Shown piece after piece: positions 1 to 38,485 of a stretch of 38,485 nucleotides of DNA. The notes under the pieces are model-generated. The model did no database searches and had not been told where the DNA came from. It worked only from the letters and a program-made list of their open reading frames with translations. A program made the position numbers and the translations under genes. Source of the DNA: a phage. Each line of letters starts with the position of its first letter. Position 1 is the stretch's first letter. The stretch is from assembly GCA_016969615.1 (NCBI GenBank), contig GCA_016969615.1_4548.1; one strand, written 5' to 3'.

Positions 1-648
1 GCTTCGCAAGGCCGCATCACCGACACTAACCCACGCTCCTAGCCCAATGCCACCAGACGTTTCAGGAGTGGAACCAGCAGGAACGTTCTTTGGAAGCGTA
101 CCATCCCAGCGGTAATAATCACCATCCTCTTCCCATAGCAGGGCCTCGTTCCATGTTGTAACGTTGAAGCCTTTCTCGAAGGAGCGACGGGTAATATAGC
201 CAACTAGACCAGCTGCCTTGATTCTCTCAGCGATTCGTCGTGCTTCGTCCTCGCTATCCTTAGCGTTGCCAGCAGAGCTACCAGCAGCATCGGCATATTC
301 CTTCGCTAAGTCAACAGTTTGGTCTCGACCTTCTTCTGCAATATGGATAGCCTGAAGCTCTGCATTGGTCAGGTCACTAGCTGTCAACACTGAGCCATTC
401 CTGAAGTCTACCACTAAGTCAGTTCCAGTCTGACGGTGAATACGAACGATGTCGAAACCTGATTGGTCAACCAACATCTCAATCATCGTTGGATTAAGGA
501 ATCGGTAATCTCGACCAACTTCCAGTACACGGTTCAGGGTGGGGTTAGAGCTATTCACCAGCGTAACAACAACAAACGTTCTGGCTAGGTATTCGAACTC
601 AATCCTGTACTGAGTGTTTCCTGAAGGGAATTGTGTAATCGTGGACAT
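1..648 (-). CDS. gp17: Tail fibre/tailspike protein, N-terminal adaptor domain (5' part only; ORF runs off the window start)
   Basis: ATG at 648..646 after AAAGGAGG; 216 codons open to position 1; translation [32 protein letters not shown]...[12 protein letters not shown]...[10 protein letters not shown] matches the conserved T7-family gp17 N-terminal domain. Confidence 0.85.
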
Positions 649-698
649 TATGCCTCCTTTGTGATTTAAATGGAGACCTATGGTAGCGCCTCCAGTTT

Positions 699-716
699 CC
701 TATAGTGATAGTTTAG
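699..716 (-). promoter_or_regulatory. Phage RNA polymerase promoter core upstream of gene 17
   Basis: plus-strand cctatagtgatagtttag = minus CTAAACTATCACTATAGG; 11 copies of this core in the window; overlaps gp16 stop. Confidence 0.8.
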
Positions 717-3700
717 TCCTTGATGTGGATACCTTGCTCCTCAAACGTTCCAAGCAACAGCTTCTGGGTAATTGGGTCGTTCGGAACCAGTTCACGGAAC
801 GTATTATACATCCCGGTCATGTAGTCACGCTCGTTGACACGAGTATCGGCCTTGAGGTAGCCAGCCAAGTTGTAAGCCGAAGCGCCAACGTTAGCAGCAT
901 ATCCGAAAGCTGGAACCTGCTCCAAGAAGTTACCAACAATATTCATCACAGGGTCACTTGTAGCTGCACCATACGCGATGGCACGTTCAGTCTTCTCTGT
1001 AGACGAACGAGGTAGGATAGACGAACGGAGCATCTTAGTGTCCTCGTACCCAGCGATACCACCAAGAATGTTAGCTACCCCAAGTGGTCCACCGAGATGT
1101 GAACTACGGGACAGAGCCGCATAACCAATCATCGTCGGGTCCAGAGCTTGCTTGAGGTAGTCACGGTCACGACCATCCTGCATAGCGTAAGCCTTGATGT
1201 GTGCCTGAGCCATGTAGTAGATACCAGCAAGACCCATAGACATCACAGTGGACAGTGCAGCGTCAATCGCTCTGTTGTTCTTCGTGGCGTTATAGAAGGT
1301 TCGCATGGTTCTCCCATTGATGGACTTGATGACGAAGTTCTTAAACTGAAGGACAGTCTTAGCCAGAGGGCCATAAGCCTTGGCGTCCATGTTACTCAGC
1401 TTGTGTGGACGAAGCAATGTCTCGTCAGCGATGGTGTCGCCCATACGCCACAGGTCCATAGCCCTTGGGTCCTGACTAAACGCCTTCTTATCCTTGATCG
1501 TGTACTTCCCGTCTGGACCACGCGTCACTGACTCACGGATGAGGGACTTAATGCCCTTCCACTGCTCGTCAGAGATACCAGCGGTCTTCAGCCATCGGTC
1601 ATCGAACTTACGCTTACTACCAGTCAGGCTATGCTCCACGATGTCAGATAGGAAGCCTTGACGTCCAGCATCTAACAGGTAGTTGGTCGTACCGTTTAGG
1701 ACTTTAGTGAACGGAGAGCGTACGGCAAGTTCACCAGTGTAATACTTGGCAGTCCCCAGAGCTGTAGCTGCACCACGACCGAGGTCACTGTAAGACCGCA
1801 GACGGTCGATGACATCCTGTTTAGACGGACGGATTGAGTCATCCAATTCTTTACCGAAGAGAACACTATGCAGGTCCTTAATCTCTGAGGCCCCTACCTT
1901 CTTGTTACGGAAGGCTAGGTCACGGAACATCGGGACTCCATGCAGCAGCGCACGAACGTTGCCACGAGCCAGCATGCCTCCAATCTCCGTTAAGTTCTGA
2001 ACACCCATGTAGGCATTCTTAGCGAAGAACGATAGGTCTGTCATTGTGCGCATCACGGTAGCGAAGGCTGCATCATCAGCACCATCACGTCGAGCACGAC
2101 CAGTTAGAATCTTCAAGGTGTCACGTAAGGTAGATACCTCACCTTTCAATTTACCGTCATCCCCAGCCTTGTTCATCATGGTCTCAACCAAGTCCTTCAT
2201 GTCCTTCGTGGTTTTGCCTGTACCAGCCATGATAGCAATATCGCCATTAACTCGACGGTTGTAGGCCGGGACAATCTTGTCCATGTCCCACTCACGCAGG
2301 TTGTTGACACTGAAGGTCTGACCGTTAGGAAGGACGATTGACATATCGCTATCGAACAGGTTACGAGCCTCAAGGAAGCTGTTGTTCTCCAGACCAACCA
2401 GACCGTTGATGTTCTCTTCCATTACGGATGAACGTTCGAACTGCTCGGTGTGAGAGATACCGTAAGCCTTATCGTTGGCGTACTTATCGACCGCAGCAGA
2501 AAGTCCCTCTGGAGTCAACGTAGGGTCAGCCTCTAAGAGTGCCTCGTCCACGCGTTTCTTGACTTCAGGTCGAGACGCATAGCTGGTCAACCATGACTTC
2601 TTGATGGCCTCCTGCAACGCCTCTGGACTCCCAAGCTCCTTGATGTACAGCTCCTTCATCTGTTTGCTATACACATGAGGGACGTAGGTCCCCTTGAATC
2701 GGCTACCCGGAAAGATAGACTGAGCGTCTGGACGACCAAACATAGCTGGGTTCTCCATCATCTCACGCTTGGCGTCAAACTGGTTCTTCAGTAGGTCATA
2801 GACTTTCAGCTCTCCCGGAGTCAGTTCAGCCTTCAGGTTCCCACTACCATCTTCGATAGCCATGGACACACGCTGGTAGATGTCCTGACGGAATGCACCA
2901 GAGTCTCGCCAGAATGCTGTCTGGAAGTACGGGTCCTTTAGTGCCTCAGTAACCGCATCGTCGATGTCGTTGTAGAACCGATGGTCCACAGCACGAAGTC
3001 TCTCGAACACGTCTGACGCAGTTGTCCCGATTTTACCTGAGGCCCCAGACTGCATACCAGTTGGTGAACGCACTAAGTCAGCAGCTACTCCACGAATCTC
3101 AGGGTTCTCAGACCGAAGCAGCTTCAGACCAATCTCGGTAAGTCCGCCAAGGTTCACGCCAGCAGCTGCACGTTCCGGCTCAATCACTTCGTCAAAGACT
3201 TGACGTGTCTTAGGGTTCAGAGGGTTCTCACCAATCAGGATTGAACCATCTTCCAGTCGTACACTACCCGGCTCGTTCGGAACGTCAGCGAACTTAACAC
3301 CTTGATGACTAAAGGTCTGCTCACCTTCCTGAATAGGTAGACGAGACAGGTCCTGACCGTCAACATTACGTGCAGTCTCACGGGCTTCCAGACGTGTGGC
3401 TGGACCAGCAAACTCATTAGTGTTGCGGCCCAAGGCTCTTCCTAGTCCATCAGCGATAGCAGTCATACCACCACCGAATAGAGCGCCACCAAGGATAGCT
3501 TCAGCCACATGAGCATCACCACCAGCCACTGAGGTACGGGCCATCTCAGACACACCAGCCAGTGCTCCGGATTGAGCCGCCACGGTGAACATCTTGTTTA
3601 CCAGTTTACCTCCTTTACCCACCTGTCCAGCAATCGGAACGTATGTCAGAGGGTCAACGCCAGCGCCAATAACACCAGCAGCCAACTGAGCACCAGTCCC

Positions 3701-4600
3701 AGCCTTGGCCTTCTCTTGGTCCAACTTCTGGTTCTCAAGCGCCAAGTTAATAAGCTCGGTCAGGTTCTGAGGAGAGCCACCAGTAATGACTCCGTAATAC
3801 TGAGGCAGAACCCCAGCGTTACGAATCTGGTCCAGCTCCTCACGCGACCACTTATGGTTGTTCCATCTGGTCGGGTTGAACACATCACCAATGACATCCA
3901 GTGAATCCTCAGTCTGGCCAGCTCGGATAGCCACGCCGACCATAGAGTTCTTCACTTCAGCTTCTGCAGCAGCACCGAAACCGAACCACGTAGAGCGATC
4001 CTCTCGCTCCTGCATGGTCTCTCCAGTAGCCTTATAGAACATCTCACCGAACGATTCGTTGGGAGCTTCAGGTGCTTGACCCTCAATGTTCAGACCAGCA
4101 GCGGTCGGAAGGTTCTCACCCAGAGCTACTTTAGGTTTAGCCTTGAGTCCTTCCGTGAGTGCGTCAAATACGTTAGCGCTTACTGGTGGAGTCTTTGGGC
4201 TGATACCGTTGAGTGCTCTTGCTACTCCCTGTTGGTAGACTTCAGGGTCGTACCGGGAGCCTGTCTCATGGAAGCTGATAGCTTGCGCCAGAGAAGACAA
4301 GGTGTCCGGGTTCGAGAGGTCGAGACTCTGGGTAGCTGGGATACCAGTCGCAGCCACCACTGAGTCTATATAAGCCTGAGTGTCGTTCTCATTAGGAGGT
4401 GCCCATCGGTTGATAATCTTCTCGATGGAGTCATAACCTTGGCGACCGTAGGACAGCAGGTTTTTACCTAAAGCTCGGACGCCAGACTCTGGACTATCGA
4501 AGGTGACGAATGCGCCATCATCTCCAGTCATTCCTTCCCATTGGTCCTTACTTACCCGGATGTTACCCGGATTGTTATTGCGAATACCACGAGTCGCCAT
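713..4600 (-). CDS. gp16: Internal virion (core) protein D
   Basis: 1295 aa; long blocks align with T7 gp16 (RSTWFGFGAAAEAE..., TRWNNHKW..., AGVIGAGVDPLTYVP); follows gp15 as in T7. Confidence 0.93.
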   Translation of the reverse strand: MATRGIRNNNPGNIRVSKDQWEGMTGDDGAFVTFDSPESGVRALGKNLLSYGRQGYDSIEKIINRWAPPNENDTQAYIDSVVAATGIPATQSLDLSNPDTLSSLAQAISFHETGSRYDPEVYQQGVARALNGISPKTPPVSANVFDALTEGLKAKPKVALGENLPTAAGLNIEGQAPEAPNESFGEMFYKATGETMQEREDRSTWFGFGAAAEAEVKNSMVGVAIRAGQTEDSLDVIGDVFNPTRWNNHKWSREELDQIRNAGVLPQYYGVITGGSPQNLTELINLALENQKLDQEKAKAGTGAQLAAGVIGAGVDPLTYVPIAGQVGKGGKLVNKMFTVAAQSGALAGVSEMARTSVAGGDAHVAEAILGGALFGGGMTAIADGLGRALGRNTNEFAGPATRLEARETARNVDGQDLSRLPIQEGEQTFSHQGVKFADVPNEPGSVRLEDGSILIGENPLNPKTRQVFDEVIEPERAAAGVNLGGLTEIGLKLLRSENPEIRGVAADLVRSPTGMQSGASGKIGTTASDVFERLRAVDHRFYNDIDDAVTEALKDPYFQTAFWRDSGAFRQDIYQRVSMAIEDGSGNLKAELTPGELKVYDLLKNQFDAKREMMENPAMFGRPDAQSIFPGSRFKGTYVPHVYSKQMKELYIKELGSPEALQEAIKKSWLTSYASRPEVKKRVDEALLEADPTLTPEGLSAAVDKYANDKAYGISHTEQFERSSVMEENINGLVGLENNSFLEARNLFDSDMSIVLPNGQTFSVNNLREWDMDKIVPAYNRRVNGDIAIMAGTGKTTKDMKDLVETMMNKAGDDGKLKGEVSTLRDTLKILTGRARRDGADDAAFATVMRTMTDLSFFAKNAYMGVQNLTEIGGMLARGNVRALLHGVPMFRDLAFRNKKVGASEIKDLHSVLFGKELDDSIRPSKQDVIDRLRSYSDLGRGAATALGTAKYYTGELAVRSPFTKVLNGTTNYLLDAGRQGFLSDIVEHSLTGSKRKFDDRWLKTAGISDEQWKGIKSLIRESVTRGPDGKYTIKDKKAFSQDPRAMDLWRMGDTIADETLLRPHKLSNMDAKAYGPLAKTVLQFKNFVIKSINGRTMRTFYNATKNNRAIDAALSTVMSMGLAGIYYMAQAHIKAYAMQDGRDRDYLKQALDPTMIGYAALSRSSHLGGPLGVANILGGIAGYEDTKMLRSSILPRSSTEKTERAIAYGAATSDPVMNIVGNFLEQVPAFGYAANVGASAYNLAGYLKADTRVNERDYMTGMYNTFRELVPNDPITQKLLLGTFEEQGIHIKD

Positions 4601-12524: not shown

Positions 12525-12630
12525 ATGATAATTCTCCTATTCAATTGAAATATAAAGTTTATTACTTACTGTACGCCCAATCCGTATGGACTGAAGTAAT
12601 AGGGAAACCTTGAGTCTGTATCTTGGTCTC

Positions 12631-12648
12631 CCTATAGTGATAGTTTAG
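12631..12648 (-). promoter_or_regulatory. Phage RNA polymerase promoter core upstream of gene 10
   Basis: minus CTAAACTATCACTATAGGGAGACC; transcript start can fold GGGAGACC...GGUUUCCC like the T7 phi10 leader. Confidence 0.85.
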
Positions 12649-13659: not shown

Positions 13660-13665
13660 ATTGTT

Positions 13666-13683
13666 CCTATAGTGATAGTTTAG
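13666..13683 (-). promoter_or_regulatory. Phage RNA polymerase promoter core upstream of gene 9
   Basis: minus CTAAACTATCACTATAGGAACAA; overlaps gp8 stop. Confidence 0.85.
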
Positions 13684-16421: not shown

Positions 16422-16486
16422 CTTGAATCTCCTCTTTAAGTTAAGACTAAAGTCTATCTTATAGTCATATCTTAGGTCCTAAAGTC

Positions 16487-16504
16487 CCTATAGTGATAGT
16501 TTAG
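16487..16504 (-). promoter_or_regulatory. Phage RNA polymerase promoter core upstream of gene 6.5
   Basis: minus CTAAACTATCACTATAGGGAC. Confidence 0.85.
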
Positions 16505-24343: not shown

Positions 24344-24386
24344 CGGTGTAAATCTCCTAATTTAAAGTTACGAACTGGACGTCTGT

Positions 24387-24404
24387 CCTACAGTGATAGT
24401 TTAG
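24387..24404 (-). promoter_or_regulatory. Phage RNA polymerase promoter core upstream of gene 2.5
   Basis: minus CTAAACTATCACTGTAGG (one mismatch). Confidence 0.75.
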
Positions 24405-25226: not shown

Positions 25227-25254
25227 AGAGTCTCCTTAGGTTGTTGATGGTTGT

Positions 25255-25272
25255 CCTATAGTGATAGCTTAG
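25255..25272 (-). promoter_or_regulatory. Phage RNA polymerase promoter core after the ligase gene
   Basis: minus CTAAGCTATCACTATAGG (one mismatch). Confidence 0.75.
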
Positions 25273-26946: not shown

Positions 26947-27023
26947 ACGGTTAAATCTCCAGTAGTGTTTATTTAGGGTTAATCATGAAGGCAACGACTT
27001 TAAGTCATTACCTTGAGTCTAAT

Positions 27024-27041
27024 CCTATAGTGATAGTTTAG
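27024..27041 (-). promoter_or_regulatory. Phage RNA polymerase promoter core upstream of gene 1.1
   Basis: minus CTAAACTATCACTATAGGATTAGACTCAAGG; followed by the recurring TAGACTCAAGG motif. Confidence 0.85.
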
Positions 27042-30538: not shown

Positions 30539-30551
30539 TTAGACCTTGAGT

Positions 30552-30569
30552 CCTATAGTGATAGTTAAG
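30552..30569 (-). promoter_or_regulatory. Phage RNA polymerase promoter core immediately upstream of gene 1
   Basis: minus CTTAACTATCACTATAGGACTCAAGG; about 70 nt upstream of the RNAP start codon. Confidence 0.8.
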
Positions 30570-32856: not shown

Positions 32857-32940
32857 TAGGTAATTTGAAATAATATTGATTGAGCTATCGTCGGCCCCAT
32901 GGTGTAAGAGGATATAGTCTTTGATTAACATGTCTTAGAC

Positions 32941-33064
32941 CTTAAGTCTATAGCCATTGTGTCTATTAACTGTAGGTTTATACTGTAGGTGTTGGTGTCG
33001 TATGGTTGAGACTGTAGGTTAGTGAGACTGAAGGTTGTGACTTATGGTTGTGACCTATGGTTAT
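32941..33064 (-). repeat. Array of short degenerate repeats on the genome-left side of the junction
   Basis: at least seven copies of minus AACCTACAG-like units (plus ctgtaggtt, cttatggtt, cctatggtt); analogous to the T7 CCTAAAG arrays. Confidence 0.5.
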
Positions 33065-33239
33065 ACAGATAGAGACTCAGAGACAGACCGATAGTCCCAA
33101 CCTATCGTCCCGACCTCCAGCCATAGCCTAGACCTATCGTCTTGACCATCGGCCCAACCTTATGATATACTGGGGTAGGGCCTTTGGTCTGGACTGAAAG
33201 AGGGCCTATGGGGAGACTTGAGGTTCTTGAACTGTGAGA
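33065..33239 (-). repeat. Candidate terminal-repeat region / physical genome left end (single junction copy)
   Basis: minus strand from 33239 reads TCTCACAGT...CCCCATAGG...GTCTCTGAGTCTCTATCTGT, resembling the start and end of the T7 terminal repeat as recalled; extent is a guess. Confidence 0.3.
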
Positions 33240-33450
33240 TGTGGTCTCAAACTTTTGGTCCAAAACTCATCGTCCCTCCTTAGGAGTCCCTGCTACTGTA
33301 GGTAATACCGTAGGTCAGAGACCTTGGGATAGACCATGGACTGCTATAGTGTTACTTTAGGTCCTTGACTACAGTAGCTAAGGTCAGTAGAGTGAGTCTT
33401 TATCCACGTACTGACCTTAGGTCTTCCGCTCATGAATCATTACCATGATT
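33240..33450 (-). repeat. Short degenerate repeats on the genome-right side of the junction
   Basis: minus GACCTAAGG, GACCTTAG, GGACCTAAAG, GACCTACGG, CTCCTAAGG units; contains a degenerate promoter-like sequence at 33339..33360. Confidence 0.45.
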
Positions 33451-33453
33451 GCG

Positions 33454-33612
33454 TTAATTACACTGAGAGACCAGAGAGCATACGAGAGTCTCGACCCACC
33501 CGACCCACTGACTTCCAGCAGTAACGCCAGCAGCAAGTAGAACAGCAGCAAGAAACCTGTATGTAGCTCGATTGGTCGCCAGAGCTTTAAGTACAGCTTT
33601 GGTCTTTGCCAT
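33454..33612 (-). CDS. Candidate 52-aa hydrophobic protein (gene 19.5 position)
   Basis: AGGAGG then 10 nt then ATG; MAKTKAVLKALATNRATYRFLAAVLLAAGVTAGSQWVGWVETLVCSLVSQCN; downstream of the last phage promoter; below ORF-track cutoff. Confidence 0.35.
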   Translation of the reverse strand: MAKTKAVLKALATNRATYRFLAAVLLAAGVTAGSQWVGWVETLVCSLVSQCN

Positions 33613-33796
33613 ATGCTACATACCTCCTGTATCTATGGTCGGTGACTATCTGTATTGGAGGGATTATGATTAATATCACCCTCCTTCCATCGGTGCAAGC
33701 CTTAGGTAAGAACTCGGAGTCTGCCTCCTAAGGTCTTGCATAAAGTCTGCATATGTATATTCACTACAGTAATACTATAAGTAACCGGGGGTCTTC

Positions 33797-33814
33797 CCTA
33801 TAGTGATAGTTAAG
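33797..33814 (-). promoter_or_regulatory. Phage RNA polymerase promoter core after the terminase gene (phiOR-like)
   Basis: minus CTTAACTATCACTATAGGGAAG; reads across the genome-end junction. Confidence 0.8.
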
Positions 33815-33909
33815 TCCAAACTCCTTGTAAAACAGTAGGTTAGACTGGTAGTAACTATAGGTTACTAACTGCGTATTCACGCAGCTTTCACCTATAATTA
33901 TTCATTCAG

Positions 33910-35684: not shown

Positions 35685-36476
35685 TTAAGAGTTAAAGATG
35701 CGGTCAACGCGAACAGTCAGGGAGGACAGAGTAAGGTCCTCAGACCCGGTAACTGCAATGCCAAGCGTAATGCCAGTAGTAACGAACGGGTCGTCTGTAT
35801 TAGCTATGTAGCTATGGATGGCCGCCTCACGAATGGTGAATGACTGCTGGTCATCTGTGTCCGTCACGGAAGATAGGGTAGTGTTATCTGGTCTACGAAG
35901 CTGCACTCGCCACTTATGAGCTGAGGCTGTAGGGAACTCACCAGCGAACCGAACGACGAAGTTTACACCACTGAGTCCCTCTTTAGCTGGGAACAGCATC
36001 TTTCCTTCCGAGATAGTAACGACGCCGCTATCCACTCCCTTCACTAAAGGAAGAGTCATTAGGTTAGTGAACTGTCCCGCAGCACACACTTGGGTTCCTG
36101 ACCAGCTGAAGGTATCCAGAGAATACTCAGCGTGGGATACAGGACGTGACTCCCGATAAGTATACTCTACCTTAACCAGTCCGACGCCACTGTCATTCAG
36201 CTTGGTGACTTTAAGAATCAGGAAATCGTCTTCTGTGATACCATCCACTTCCAGACGTATACTGCTTGATTGTAGAGGCCAGTCGCCACCATCGGAGAAA
36301 TTACCAGTAACAGACGTACCGTCGCTTAGTGTAATCCTTGTAGACTCGGCGTTAGCTGGGACCTTCACGTATATTGTACCAGATAACAAGTGACCGGATG
36401 CGTTCTTCAGTCCAGATGGTGTACCAGTAGCAAAATGCCAAACTACGTCAGTTTTCAAAGTAATAATATTACCCAT
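35685..36476 (-). CDS. Hypothetical 263-aa protein between the spanin genes and the terminase gene
   Basis: ATG 36476 after AAGGAG (7 nt), overlaps gp18.5 stop; Thr/Ser/Gly/Val-rich, no TM segment, no motif recognised; no gene at this position in the T7 map. Confidence 0.8.
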
Positions 36477-37486: not shown

Positions 37487-37556
37487 AAAACCTCCAGTTT
37501 AAAGCGGGTCGTCCGTGACCCAAAGTTGTTACCATACGTTGGTCAGCGTGTAGTTA

Positions 37557-38485
37557 TCACTCAAACCAAGTTGATATTTTGTAAGTGATTGAACCGCGAA
37601 TGGTTGCTGATGATGTAAGATCTTCATTTGTCAATGGCGAGGTTGATGATCCATCTACTAGCTTGTAAAAATCTAATGTTGTTGAATTTCTTTCCATAGA
37701 TATACAAATCTGACCAACACCAGAGCTAACCCCACTTACCCTTGATATGGTCCCAGATGCCACATCGGACGATGCGTAAGGTAGATTTCTAAACCGTAAC
37801 TGTCCGGTTTGACCTCCCGCACCATTGAATGAAATATCAAATTCAAGGGTAATTAAACCACCTTCTTTTCTCAGTTTTACGTCTTTTGTGGCGCCACCTA
37901 TGTCAGATGTAATATCCCCGAAAGTTATCACCACAGAAGAGTCAAGAACCGAACTAAGGGAGAAGGGTTCAAACACGACAAGGTTAGTACTGCCTCCTTT
38001 GTAGATATAACTATTGGTAGGTGTGTTGTACCGCACTGTGTTACCCTCGCCACTACAAGCAACACGTGGGATTGTATTGCCGCCGAATGAGCCACCATTG
38101 AACACAATGTTATTCCCAGTACTATGTATCCAGAGGTCACGACTATATGAAGTGTCTTGACCGAACACTAAGAAATTATTGAAGGTGAGGTTGTTATCAC
38201 TATGCACAGATAACAGGTTACCTGTACCACCTGCCGGTAAGATATAAAAGTCTGTAAGTGTCATGTCATTACCTTGCTGAAAATGACCCAGGACTCCAAG
38301 GGCAGCATCCTGTGTAGTGGGTAACTCAGCACCACATCCTGTAAGATTAAAGCCGTTGTTATTATCAAACCAGTACGCGCCATACACTGTACCATCAGAC
38401 GCACAGCTTCTCATATTACCATACTGCTGGTTGCTAATTCTAAATGCACCAGGCGTTACTGTAGGGTCTGTAACCTTAGCAAATA
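37557..38485 (-). CDS. gp17: Tail fibre/tailspike C-terminal receptor-binding region (3' part only; ORF enters from beyond the window end)
   Basis: open frame from the window edge to TGA at 37557 (308 codons), then holin as in T7; visibly AT-richer than the rest (about 35-40% GC in sampled lines); no similarity to T7 gp17 C-terminus recognised. Confidence 0.7.
   Translation of the reverse strand, partial: FAKVTDPTVTPGAFRISNQQYGNMRSCASDGTVYGAYWFDNNNGFNLTGCGAELPTTQDAALGVLGHFQQGNDMTLTDFYILPAGGTGNLLSVHSDNNLTFNNFLVFGQDTSYSRDLWIHSTGNNIVFNGGSFGGNTIPRVACSGEGNTVRYNTPTNSYIYKGGSTNLVVFEPFSLSSVLDSSVVITFGDITSDIGGATKDVKLRKEGGLITLEFDISFNGAGGQTGQLRFRNLPYASSDVASGTISRVSGVSSGVGQICISMERNSTTLDFYKLVDGSSTSPLTNEDLTSSATIRGSITYKISTWFE

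What the first reader, a model, noticed from the sequence alone, without database searches (positions are those of the whole stretch)
37557..38485. Mosaic tail fibre: conserved adaptor, divergent AT-rich receptor-binding part
The N-terminal 216 aa (at 1..648) carry the T7-family adaptor domain, but the C-terminal 308 aa at the window end look unrelated to the T7 fibre and are visibly AT-richer than the genome. This is the usual signature of a horizontally exchanged host-specificity module; its receptor is unknown. The middle of the gene is outside the window.
Basis: partly seen in the sequence, partly recalled or inferred. Interest (0 to 1): 0.45.

Follow-up and report, generated by a model that had tools for sequence, protein, structure and literature searches.

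The report
Swapped tailspike tip on T7-like phage
The two window ends hold the two ends of the tailspike gene of a T7-like (Kayfunavirus) phage: a genus-conserved anchor, and an AT-rich beta-helix sugar-recognising module shared with unrelated phage groups, which is the ordinary, well-documented way these phages change host.

Summary

- **Context.** The window is a permuted Kayfunavirus genome with its genes on the minus strand. Gene 17 is cut by the window ends.
- **Anchor.** Bases 648..1 encode 216 aa: a T7 gp17-type adaptor (PF03906) plus a Tail_spike_N domain (PF18668). This part is 91-97% identical to other Kayfunaviruses.
- **C-terminal part.** Bases 38483..37557 encode 308 aa plus a stop. 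It shows no similarity to T7 gp17, to any Pfam family or to any solved structure.
- **Composition.** GC is 42.6% against 50.1% for the genome, the lowest 0.1% of windows. GC3 is 35.6% against 55.6%.
- **Relatives.** The family is rare (36 hits in 1.84 billion representatives) and sits behind N4-like, P22-like, siphovirus-type and Kayfunavirus (Hafnia phage yong1) anchors. This shows cassette exchange.
- **Boundaries.** They lie at the "LRS" linker and exactly at the stop codon.
- **Missing middle.** About 190 aa are absent from the window.
- **Function.** The receptor is unknown. An O-antigen or capsule depolymerase role is inferred.

It is a new member of a known kind.

The parts
1..648 (-). 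5' part of gene 17: the N-terminal 216 aa of the tailspike (the anchor module). It runs off the window at base 1.
   Evidence: Translation. It is 96.8% identical over 216 aa to the Baskent_phicoli_1 tail protein and 90.7% to Hafnia phage yong1. PDB chain 9vvr_A matches at E 4.7e-137 over residues 1-216.
301..621 (-). T7 gp17-type N-terminal adaptor domain (residues 10-116), which docks the spike on the tail.
   Evidence: PF03906 at E 3.4e-17, 63 bits against a cut-off of 25.2. T7 gp17 chains 7boz, 8dsp and 8e4g match residues 6-116.
16..189 (-). Tail_spike_N domain (residues 154-211), ending in [13 protein letters not shown]. It is the last conserved element before the exchange junction.
   Evidence: PF18668 at E 2.2e-20, 72.9 bits against a cut-off of 25. 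CBA120 TSP1, TSP3 and TSP4 chains match residues 151-216. Megablast matches to other Kayfunaviruses stop at window bases 2-17.
695..715 (-). Phage RNA-polymerase promoter in front of gene 17.
   Evidence: TAAACTATCACTATAGGAAAC is one of 9 such sites, all on the minus strand; 0 are expected by chance.
653..660 (-). Ribosome-binding site AAAGGAGG, ending 4 nt before the ATG at 648-646.
   Evidence: Read from the sequence.
37557..38483 (-). 3' part of gene 17: the C-terminal 308 aa plus the TGA stop (37557-37559). This is the AT-rich exchanged receptor-binding cassette, cut at the window end.
   Evidence: Translation. GC 42.6% and GC3 35.6%. 49% identical to the C-terminus of the Gamaleyavirus F22/E20 tail fibre and 68-69% to P0002. 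Similarity to other Kayfunaviruses resumes at 37556, directly after the stop.
37944..38483 (-). Distal rungs of a right-handed parallel beta-helix (fragment residues 1 to about 180). They carry the family's conserved acidic residues D30 (38394-38396), E53 (38325-38327) and D116 (38136-38138).
37560..37931 (-). C-terminal beta-sandwich domain (fragment residues about 185-308). It is the most variable part of the family.
38484..38485 (-). Two left-over bases of the codon cut by the window end.
   Evidence: Only the frame starting at 38483 is open.

Best explanation
The two ends of the window are the two ends of one gene, gene 17 of a Kayfunavirus (a T7-like podovirus). The gene encodes a trimeric tailspike of about 715-725 aa built from exchangeable modules.

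The N-terminal 216 aa are the genus-conserved anchor. It consists of a T7 gp17-type adaptor that docks on the tail, followed by a Tail_spike_N domain. Directly after the linker ...GDAALRS begins a receptor-binding cassette of about 500 aa, of which the window holds only the last 308 aa. That fragment comprises the distal rungs of a right-handed parallel beta-helix and a C-terminal beta-sandwich.

The cassette was acquired by recombination from a pool shared with N4-like, P22-like, siphovirus-type and other enterobacterial phages. This explains three things: its foreign, AT-rich codon composition; the sharp homology breaks at the linker and at the stop codon; and the lack of any relationship to the T7 fibre.

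By analogy with other Kayfunavirus and beta-helix tailspikes, it most likely binds and cleaves a surface polysaccharide of the host (O-antigen or capsule), with D30, E53 and D116 as candidate catalytic residues. In doing so it sets the host range.

- Shown here: the anatomy, composition, fold, modular distribution and boundaries.
- Inferred: the single-ORF continuity across the gap, trimer formation, enzymatic activity and the type of receptor.
For: Context. Gene order and 95-98% nucleotide identity to Kayfunaviruses hold on both sides: gp16 plus the anchor, and holin through terminase. Flanking genes match holin, small terminase and Rz families.

Anchor. PF03906 and PF18668 and solved relatives.

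Composition. GC 42.6% against 50.1%, the lowest 0.1% of windows. GC3 35.6% against 55.6%, with a minimum of 45.6% elsewhere.

Modular distribution. The same C-terminal family occurs at 49% identity at the end of the 1038-aa gp66-like fibre of Gamaleyavirus F22/E20. It lies behind P22 head-binding domains in P0004 and P0006 (P0004 confirmed as PF09008). It lies behind a Kagunavirus/Jersey-type anchor in P0002. It also occurs in Kayfunavirus yong1 as one 726-aa ORF with the same anchor.

Gap size. P0002, P0007, P0009 and yong1 place 187-195 residues between the fragments.

Boundaries. Homology to relatives ends at window bases 2-17 and resumes at 37556.

Conserved acidic residues. D30 in 34 of 35 sequences, E53 in 33 of 35, D116 in 32 of 35.

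Literature. [quoted passage not shown] Kayfunaviruses target K1 capsule, O104 or O16 O-antigen with enzymatic tailspikes according to PMC11990801.
Against: - The middle of the gene is not in the window, so continuity is inferred.
- CLB_P1, the closest relative of the downstream region (98% nt), splits its receptor-binding protein into an adapter (gp17, 325 aa) and a separate spike (gp17.1).
- No family member with a known substrate or solved structure was found, so activity and receptor rest on analogy.
- The part of the beta-helix that may hold further active-site residues is missing.
- No donor is identifiable. The best nucleotide match is 72% over 164 nt.
- Low GC is common to unrelated receptor-binding parts in this genus. 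It therefore marks the cassette pool rather than a recent event.
Confidence: 0.85

Rival explanations
1. Split architecture as in phage CLB_P1. Under this reading the 216 aa belong to a short adapter protein (about 325 aa) that ends in the unseen stretch. The 308 aa would belong to a separate tailspike gene whose product docks on that adapter non-covalently.
For: CLB_P1 is the closest relative of the region just downstream (98.1% nt). It shares the rare 263-aa ORF, and it has gp17 (325 aa, same first 216 aa) plus gp17.1 (430 aa). PMC10408124 describes this split. The size of the gap is unknown.
Against: CLB_P1 gp17.1 is unrelated to this cassette; it did not appear in the tblastn search. In every homologue read in full, the cassette is fused in one ORF to an anchor, beginning right at the LRS linker where this fragment stops. 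Kayfunavirus yong1 has the same anchor and the same cassette family in one 726-aa ORF. A gap of about 190 aa would give a genome of about 39.1 kb, typical for the genus (record lengths).
Confidence: 0.1
2. The module is a binding-only adhesin, with a beta-helix scaffold but no enzymatic activity. It would hold on to a glycan or protein receptor without cleaving it.
For: There is no hit to any glycosidase, lyase or pectate-lyase sequence family. The role of gp66-type fibres of N4-like phages is not established (own knowledge; no functional paper was found). The C-terminal beta-sandwich resembles receptor-binding knobs of adenovirus, reovirus and TP901-1.
Against: Three acidic residues are kept in 32-34 of 35 sequences, down to 20-25% identity, while surrounding positions vary. 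D30 and E53 are 23 residues apart, about one helix rung, as is typical of tailspike active sites (inference). The best structural matches are enzymatically active tailspikes and pectin-lyase-fold enzymes. Kayfunavirus tailspikes studied so far are enzymatic (PMC11990801).
Confidence: 0.25
3. The AT-richness is not a mark of foreign origin. It would follow instead from the amino-acid make-up of a beta-helix (much N, S, T, I, F) or from weak codon selection in this gene.
For: GC at first codon positions is also low (45% against about 58%), which reflects amino-acid content. Unrelated receptor-binding parts in Baskent_phicoli_1, CLB_P1 and yong1 are equally low in GC.
Against: The largest drop is at synonymous third positions: 35.6% against 55.6%, below every 309-codon window of the other genes. 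The value matches the genomes that carry relatives (F22 locus 42.1%, P0002 contig 44.7%). Independent evidence for exchange exists in the sharp homology breaks and the different anchors.
Confidence: 0.08
4. Assembly artefact. The contig end would be a chimera, or the gene is broken because several tailspike variants co-occurred in the sample, so that the two fragments come from different phage genomes.
For: The window starts and ends inside the most variable gene of the genome, a typical place for assemblies to break. The ends neither overlap nor join in frame.
Against: The cassette is physically continuous with Kayfunavirus sequence: similarity resumes one base after its stop codon, on the same stretch. 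The anchor fragment ends exactly where cassettes of this family begin in homologues. The combination exists in nature, in yong1.
Confidence: 0.04

Closest known systems
Hafnia phage vB_HpaA_yong1 tail fibre protein (QBQ73026.1, 726 aa; Kayfunavirus)
   Same: It belongs to the same genus and has the same anchor (90.7% identity over 214 aa). It carries the same receptor-binding family, is the best structural match (TM 0.77) and lies in the same position before the holin gene. It shows the expected full architecture in one ORF.
   Different: It is only 26% identical in the C-terminal part, so it very likely has a different glycan specificity. Its host is Hafnia paralvei. No functional study was found.
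gp66-type 'tail fiber' of Gamaleyavirus (N4-like) Escherichia phages vB_Eco_F22 and E20
   Same: It is the closest cultured-phage relative of the C-terminal 308 aa: 49% identity over the full length, E 1e-85. The only nucleotide match is here, 72% over 164 nt. GC is similarly low, 38.7% over the last 930 nt and 38.5% over the last 1530 nt.
   Different: The anchor is completely different and about 580 aa long, on a branched N4-like adsorption apparatus. The protein is 1038 aa (893 aa in the P0003 form). Substrate is unknown.
Characterised Kayfunavirus tailspikes (K1F endosialidase; CLB_P1 O104; ElsieAttenhofer O16; the 9vvr tail spike)
   Same: They share the same conserved N-terminal anchor on an exchangeable glycan-specific C-terminal module, and the same locus between gp16 and the holin.
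   Different: The C-terminal modules show no detectable sequence similarity to this one. CLB_P1 splits adapter and spike.
Solved beta-helix tailspikes: CBA120 TSP2 (5w6p/6w4q) and Det7 gp208 (6f7k/6f7d)
   Different: Identity is 7-14%, TM is only 0.36-0.38 over the whole fragment, and no sequence-level match exists. Substrates cannot be transferred.
T7 gp17 tail fibre
   Same: The N-terminal adaptor domain is shared (PF03906; PDB 7boz, residues 12-122).
   Different: There is no similarity after the adaptor. T7 has a coiled-coil shaft, pyramid and tip domain that bind rough LPS without enzymatic activity (own knowledge). Here there is a beta-helix spike.

Membership tests
T7 gp17-type tail fibre/tailspike N-terminal adaptor (PF03906) | Sequence match to the family profile above the curated threshold | tested here: met
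   63 bits against a cut-off of 25.2, residues 10-116. T7 gp17 PDB chains match at E 1e-17 to 1e-19.
T7 gp17-type tail fibre/tailspike N-terminal adaptor (PF03906) | Position in a T7-like late operon, after gp16 and before holin and small terminase | tested here: met
   The gp16 homologue lies at 713..4600(-), directly upstream. Holin, small terminase and Rz lie downstream of 37557.
Tail_spike_N (PF18668, TSP1/gp66 N-terminal domain) | Sequence match above the curated threshold | tested here: met
   72.9 bits against a cut-off of 25, residues 154-211.
Right-handed parallel beta-helix phage tailspikes (pectin-lyase-like fold) | Beta-helix fold of the receptor-binding part | tested here: met
Right-handed parallel beta-helix phage tailspikes (pectin-lyase-like fold) | Homotrimer | not testable with these tools
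   Only monomer prediction was available, and the fragment lacks the N-terminal half of the helix.
Right-handed parallel beta-helix phage tailspikes (pectin-lyase-like fold) | Polysaccharide-cleaving activity with acidic catalytic residues | tested here: inconclusive
   D30, E53 and D116 are conserved in 32-34 of 35 family members. No coordinates were available to check their geometry, no characterised relative exists, and there is no assay.
Right-handed parallel beta-helix phage tailspikes (pectin-lyase-like fold) | Match to a curated sequence family of beta-helix enzymes (e.g. Pectate_lyase_3, Beta_helix) | tested here: not met
   No Pfam hit at E<=1 and no NCBIfam hit. Full-length homologues likewise hit only anchor domains.
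F22/E20-yong1 receptor-binding family (matches phrog_21710, unknown function) | Full-length sequence similarity of the C-terminal module | tested here: met
   49% identity and 100% coverage to F22/E20. 68-69% to P0002, with 36 family members at E<=1e-3. phrog_21710 at E 2.7e-11.
T7 gp17 C-terminal fibre (shaft, pyramid and tip) | Sequence or fold similarity to T7 gp17 residues after the adaptor | tested here: not met
   No T7 gp17 hit at E<=10, although 7boz is in the library. T7 gp17 is absent from the listed matches of the three fold searches (top 50-60 each).
SGNH-esterase tailspikes (G7C gp63.1 type, deacetylating) | SGNH hydrolase domain | tested here: not met
   No Pfam hit. The fold is beta-helix plus beta-sandwich. 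The unseen 190 aa align in homologues to further beta-helix-type sequence with no Pfam domain.

The most novel reading that the evidence does not exclude
The cassette may belong to a rare, wholly uncharacterised tailspike enzyme family. It has 36 representatives among 1.84 billion proteins, no Pfam or NCBIfam model and no solved structure. It would have its own D/E/D active site and a specificity for an O- or K-antigen not yet assigned to any phage depolymerase. This Kayfunavirus would then carry a subtype (no more than 69% identity to anything known) that defines a new host specificity.
Probability: 0.3. Interest if true: 0.35.

Novelty: new member of a known kind. Interest (0 to 1): 0.2.

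Why it matters
The practical value is modest. It adds one more receptor-binding subtype to the catalogue used to predict or engineer phage host range. It also flags a rare beta-helix family, present on at least four kinds of phage anchor, that has no structure, no profile and no known substrate. Whoever has the phage or synthesises the gene could assign a glycan specificity to the whole family. The clean boundaries, at the LRS linker and at the stop codon, give ready-made swap points for engineering. It does not change how tailspike modularity is understood.

Tried and rejected
- A single-sequence AlphaFold run gave an unusable model (pLDDT 49). Only the run with the 35-sequence alignment was used.
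- I looked for the source contig, or for a close relative carrying the whole gene. These searches found nothing:
  - exact DNA patterns in IMG/VR and JGI metagenomes;
  - exact-protein look-up;
  - protein-pattern scans of IMG/VR, of GTDB species genomes (searches failed for lack of conserved stretches) and of JGI metagenomes.
- I looked for prophage copies in 5,426 complete E. coli genomes to infer a serogroup. There was no nucleotide match for this cassette or for its 69% relative.
- The word-indexed search of 5.8 billion proteins gave one hit only.
- A profile search of PDB sequences with the family alignment hit only anchor domains.
- Literature searches for phages F22 and E20 gave no host-receptor data.
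- I considered a terminator or a conserved hairpin just downstream of the stop codon. The fold is no better than shuffles (z -0.22) and no terminator-like site is found there.
- I considered that the window might be a closed circle with an intact gene. This is rejected because the direct join stops after 9 codons.

Full report
**What the window is.** All long ORFs lie on the minus strand. The stretch from gp16 to the start of the tail gene is 95-96% identical at nucleotide level to many Kayfunavirus genomes of 37-40 kb, found on Escherichia, Salmonella and other hosts. The stretch downstream of the finding is 90-98% identical to the same genus. It covers the holin, small terminase, Rz, a 263-aa ORF and the large terminase. 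Nine T7-type phage promoters, all on the minus strand, are present. The window is therefore a reverse-complemented, permuted Kayfunavirus genome (Autographiviridae, Studiervirinae) whose two ends fall inside gene 17.

**The observation.**
- On the minus strand, 648..1 encodes 216 aa from an ATG preceded by AAAGGAGG and a phage promoter.
- On the minus strand, 38483..37560 encodes 308 aa followed by TGA. Bases 38484-38485 are the remainder of a cut codon.
- The 929-nt stretch has 42.6% GC against 50.1% for the window. Only 0.11% of equally long windows are as low, and all of them overlap this stretch.
- At third codon positions the value is 35.6%, against a gene-weighted mean of 55.6%. No 309-codon window in any other gene goes below 45.6%.
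- The composition claim is therefore correct and far beyond chance. It sits mostly at synonymous sites.

**The anchor.** The 216 aa match PF03906 (T7 tail fibre N-terminal domain, residues 10-116) and PF18668 (Tail_spike_N, residues 154-211), both well above threshold. They also match solved T7 gp17, CBA120 tailspikes and a Kayfunavirus-type spike, 9vvr, at E 4.7e-137. The fragment is 96.8% identical to the first 216 residues of the Baskent_phicoli_1 tail protein and 90.7% to Hafnia phage yong1. It reads essentially the same as the first 216 residues of CLB_P1 gp17. Nucleotide matches to relatives run to within 2-17 bases of the window start. The last conserved residues are thus the linker ...[13 protein letters not shown].

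**The C-terminal part.**
- It has no Pfam or NCBIfam family and only an unknown-function PHROG, phrog_21710 at E 2.7e-11.
- It has no sequence relative among solved structures, T7 gp17 included.
- At nucleotide level the phage collection gives only 72% over 164 nt, to two N4-like coliphages. Complete E. coli genomes give nothing.
- At protein level it is 49% identical over its full length to the C-terminus of the gp66-like tail fibre of Gamaleyavirus F22/E20.
- An exhaustive HMMER scan of 1.84 billion representatives finds only 36 relatives. The best is P0002, at 69% by that scan and 68% by BLASTP. The family is rare.

**Evidence for exchange.** Full-length relatives carry the same module of about 500 aa behind different anchors:
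- P22 head-binding domains, by sequence in P0004 and P0006, with P0004 confirmed as PF09008;
- the long N4-like gp66 anchor in P0003 and F22;
- a Kagunavirus/Jersey-type siphovirus anchor in P0002 and P0007;
- a bare Tail_spike_N anchor in P0009;
- the very same Kayfunavirus anchor in yong1, as one 726-aa ORF.

The homology breaks are sharp. One lies at the LRS linker and the other one base after the stop codon. [quoted passage not shown]

The composition of the cassette resembles the genomes that carry its relatives: the F22 locus is 42.1% GC and the P0002 contig 44.7%. However, unrelated receptor-binding parts of other Kayfunaviruses are just as low. Baskent is 42.6%, CLB_P1 44.2-44.4% and yong1 44.6%, on 49-50% backbones. 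Low GC therefore marks the shared cassette pool rather than a datable event.

**The missing middle.** Joining the ends directly yields a stop after nine codons, and the ends do not overlap. Aligning both fragments to P0002, P0007, P0009 and yong1 puts 187-195 residues between them. That gives a protein of about 715-725 aa and a genome of about 39.1 kb, both typical of the genus. The alternative is a split adapter plus spike as in CLB_P1 (PMC10408124). It cannot be excluded from the window alone, but every relative of this cassette argues against it.

**Mechanism.**
- Shown: anchor, linker and beta-helix cassette; foreign composition; a modular distribution across phage groups.
- Inferred from established knowledge of tailspikes: the protein trimerises, six copies sit on the tail through the gp17-type adaptor, and the beta-helix binds a host surface polysaccharide.
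- Probably, at about 0.6-0.7, it also cleaves that polysaccharide so the virion can reach the outer membrane.

Within the fragment, D30, E53 and D116 are conserved in 32-34 of 35 family members, down to 20-25% identity. D30 and E53 are 23 residues apart, about one rung. This fits an active site on the helix face but is not proof. Kayfunaviruses studied so far use enzymatic spikes against K1 capsule, O104 or O16 O-antigen (PMC11990801). The receptor here is unknown. No relative with a known substrate or serotyped prophage host could be found.

**Verdict.** The case is a textbook mosaic tailspike: a new subtype of a rare, uncharacterised receptor-binding family on a standard Kayfunavirus anchor. 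It is a new member of a known kind and of low interest, except as a lead to an unstudied depolymerase family.

Noticed in passing
window 35685..36476 (-): A 263-aa ORF lies between the Rz-like gene and the large terminase. It is present in CLB_P1 (gp18.8, annotated 'putative protease') and P762. In most other listed Kayfunaviruses the match is split in two pieces covering only about 40% of the query, which suggests they lack it. It has no Pfam or NCBIfam hit and matches only phrog_17779, of unknown function (E 1e-22, residues 117-262).
   Followed up: partly
L001 3942-4682 (Escherichia phage vB_Eco_F22 tail fibre gene, OP870143.1): The F22 tail fibre gene has a perfect tandem duplication: at least 300 nt at 100% identity, spaced 441 nt apart, which is 147 aa in frame. 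It repeats the start of the receptor-binding cassette. The related protein P0003 is 893 aa, against 1038 aa for F22, and lacks the duplication. It may be real or an assembly artefact.
   Followed up: partly
window 695..715, 12627..12647, 13662..13682, 16483..16503, 24383..24403, 25251..25271, 27020..27040, 30548..30568, 33793..33813 (all -): Nine copies of a T7-type phage RNA-polymerase promoter (core CTATCACTATAGG) are present, against none expected by chance. One sits directly in front of gene 17.
   Followed up: partly
window about 32930..33900: This stretch of about 1 kb has no ORF of 60 aa or more on either strand and a GC of about 45-46%. It lies between the large terminase gene and the early genes. 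It is probably the region of the physical genome ends (terminal repeat) and early promoters, so the window looks like a permuted assembly.
   Followed up: no
L004 (Logan SRR33471246 contig, 15.7 kb): P0002, the closest relative of the cassette (68-69%), sits on a contig that combines a Kagunavirus/Jersey-type tail tip and tailspike anchor with lambdoid or P22-like early genes (Kil, NinB, NinX, NinG, SSB, YqaJ). The contig has 44.7% GC and its host is unknown.
   Followed up: partly
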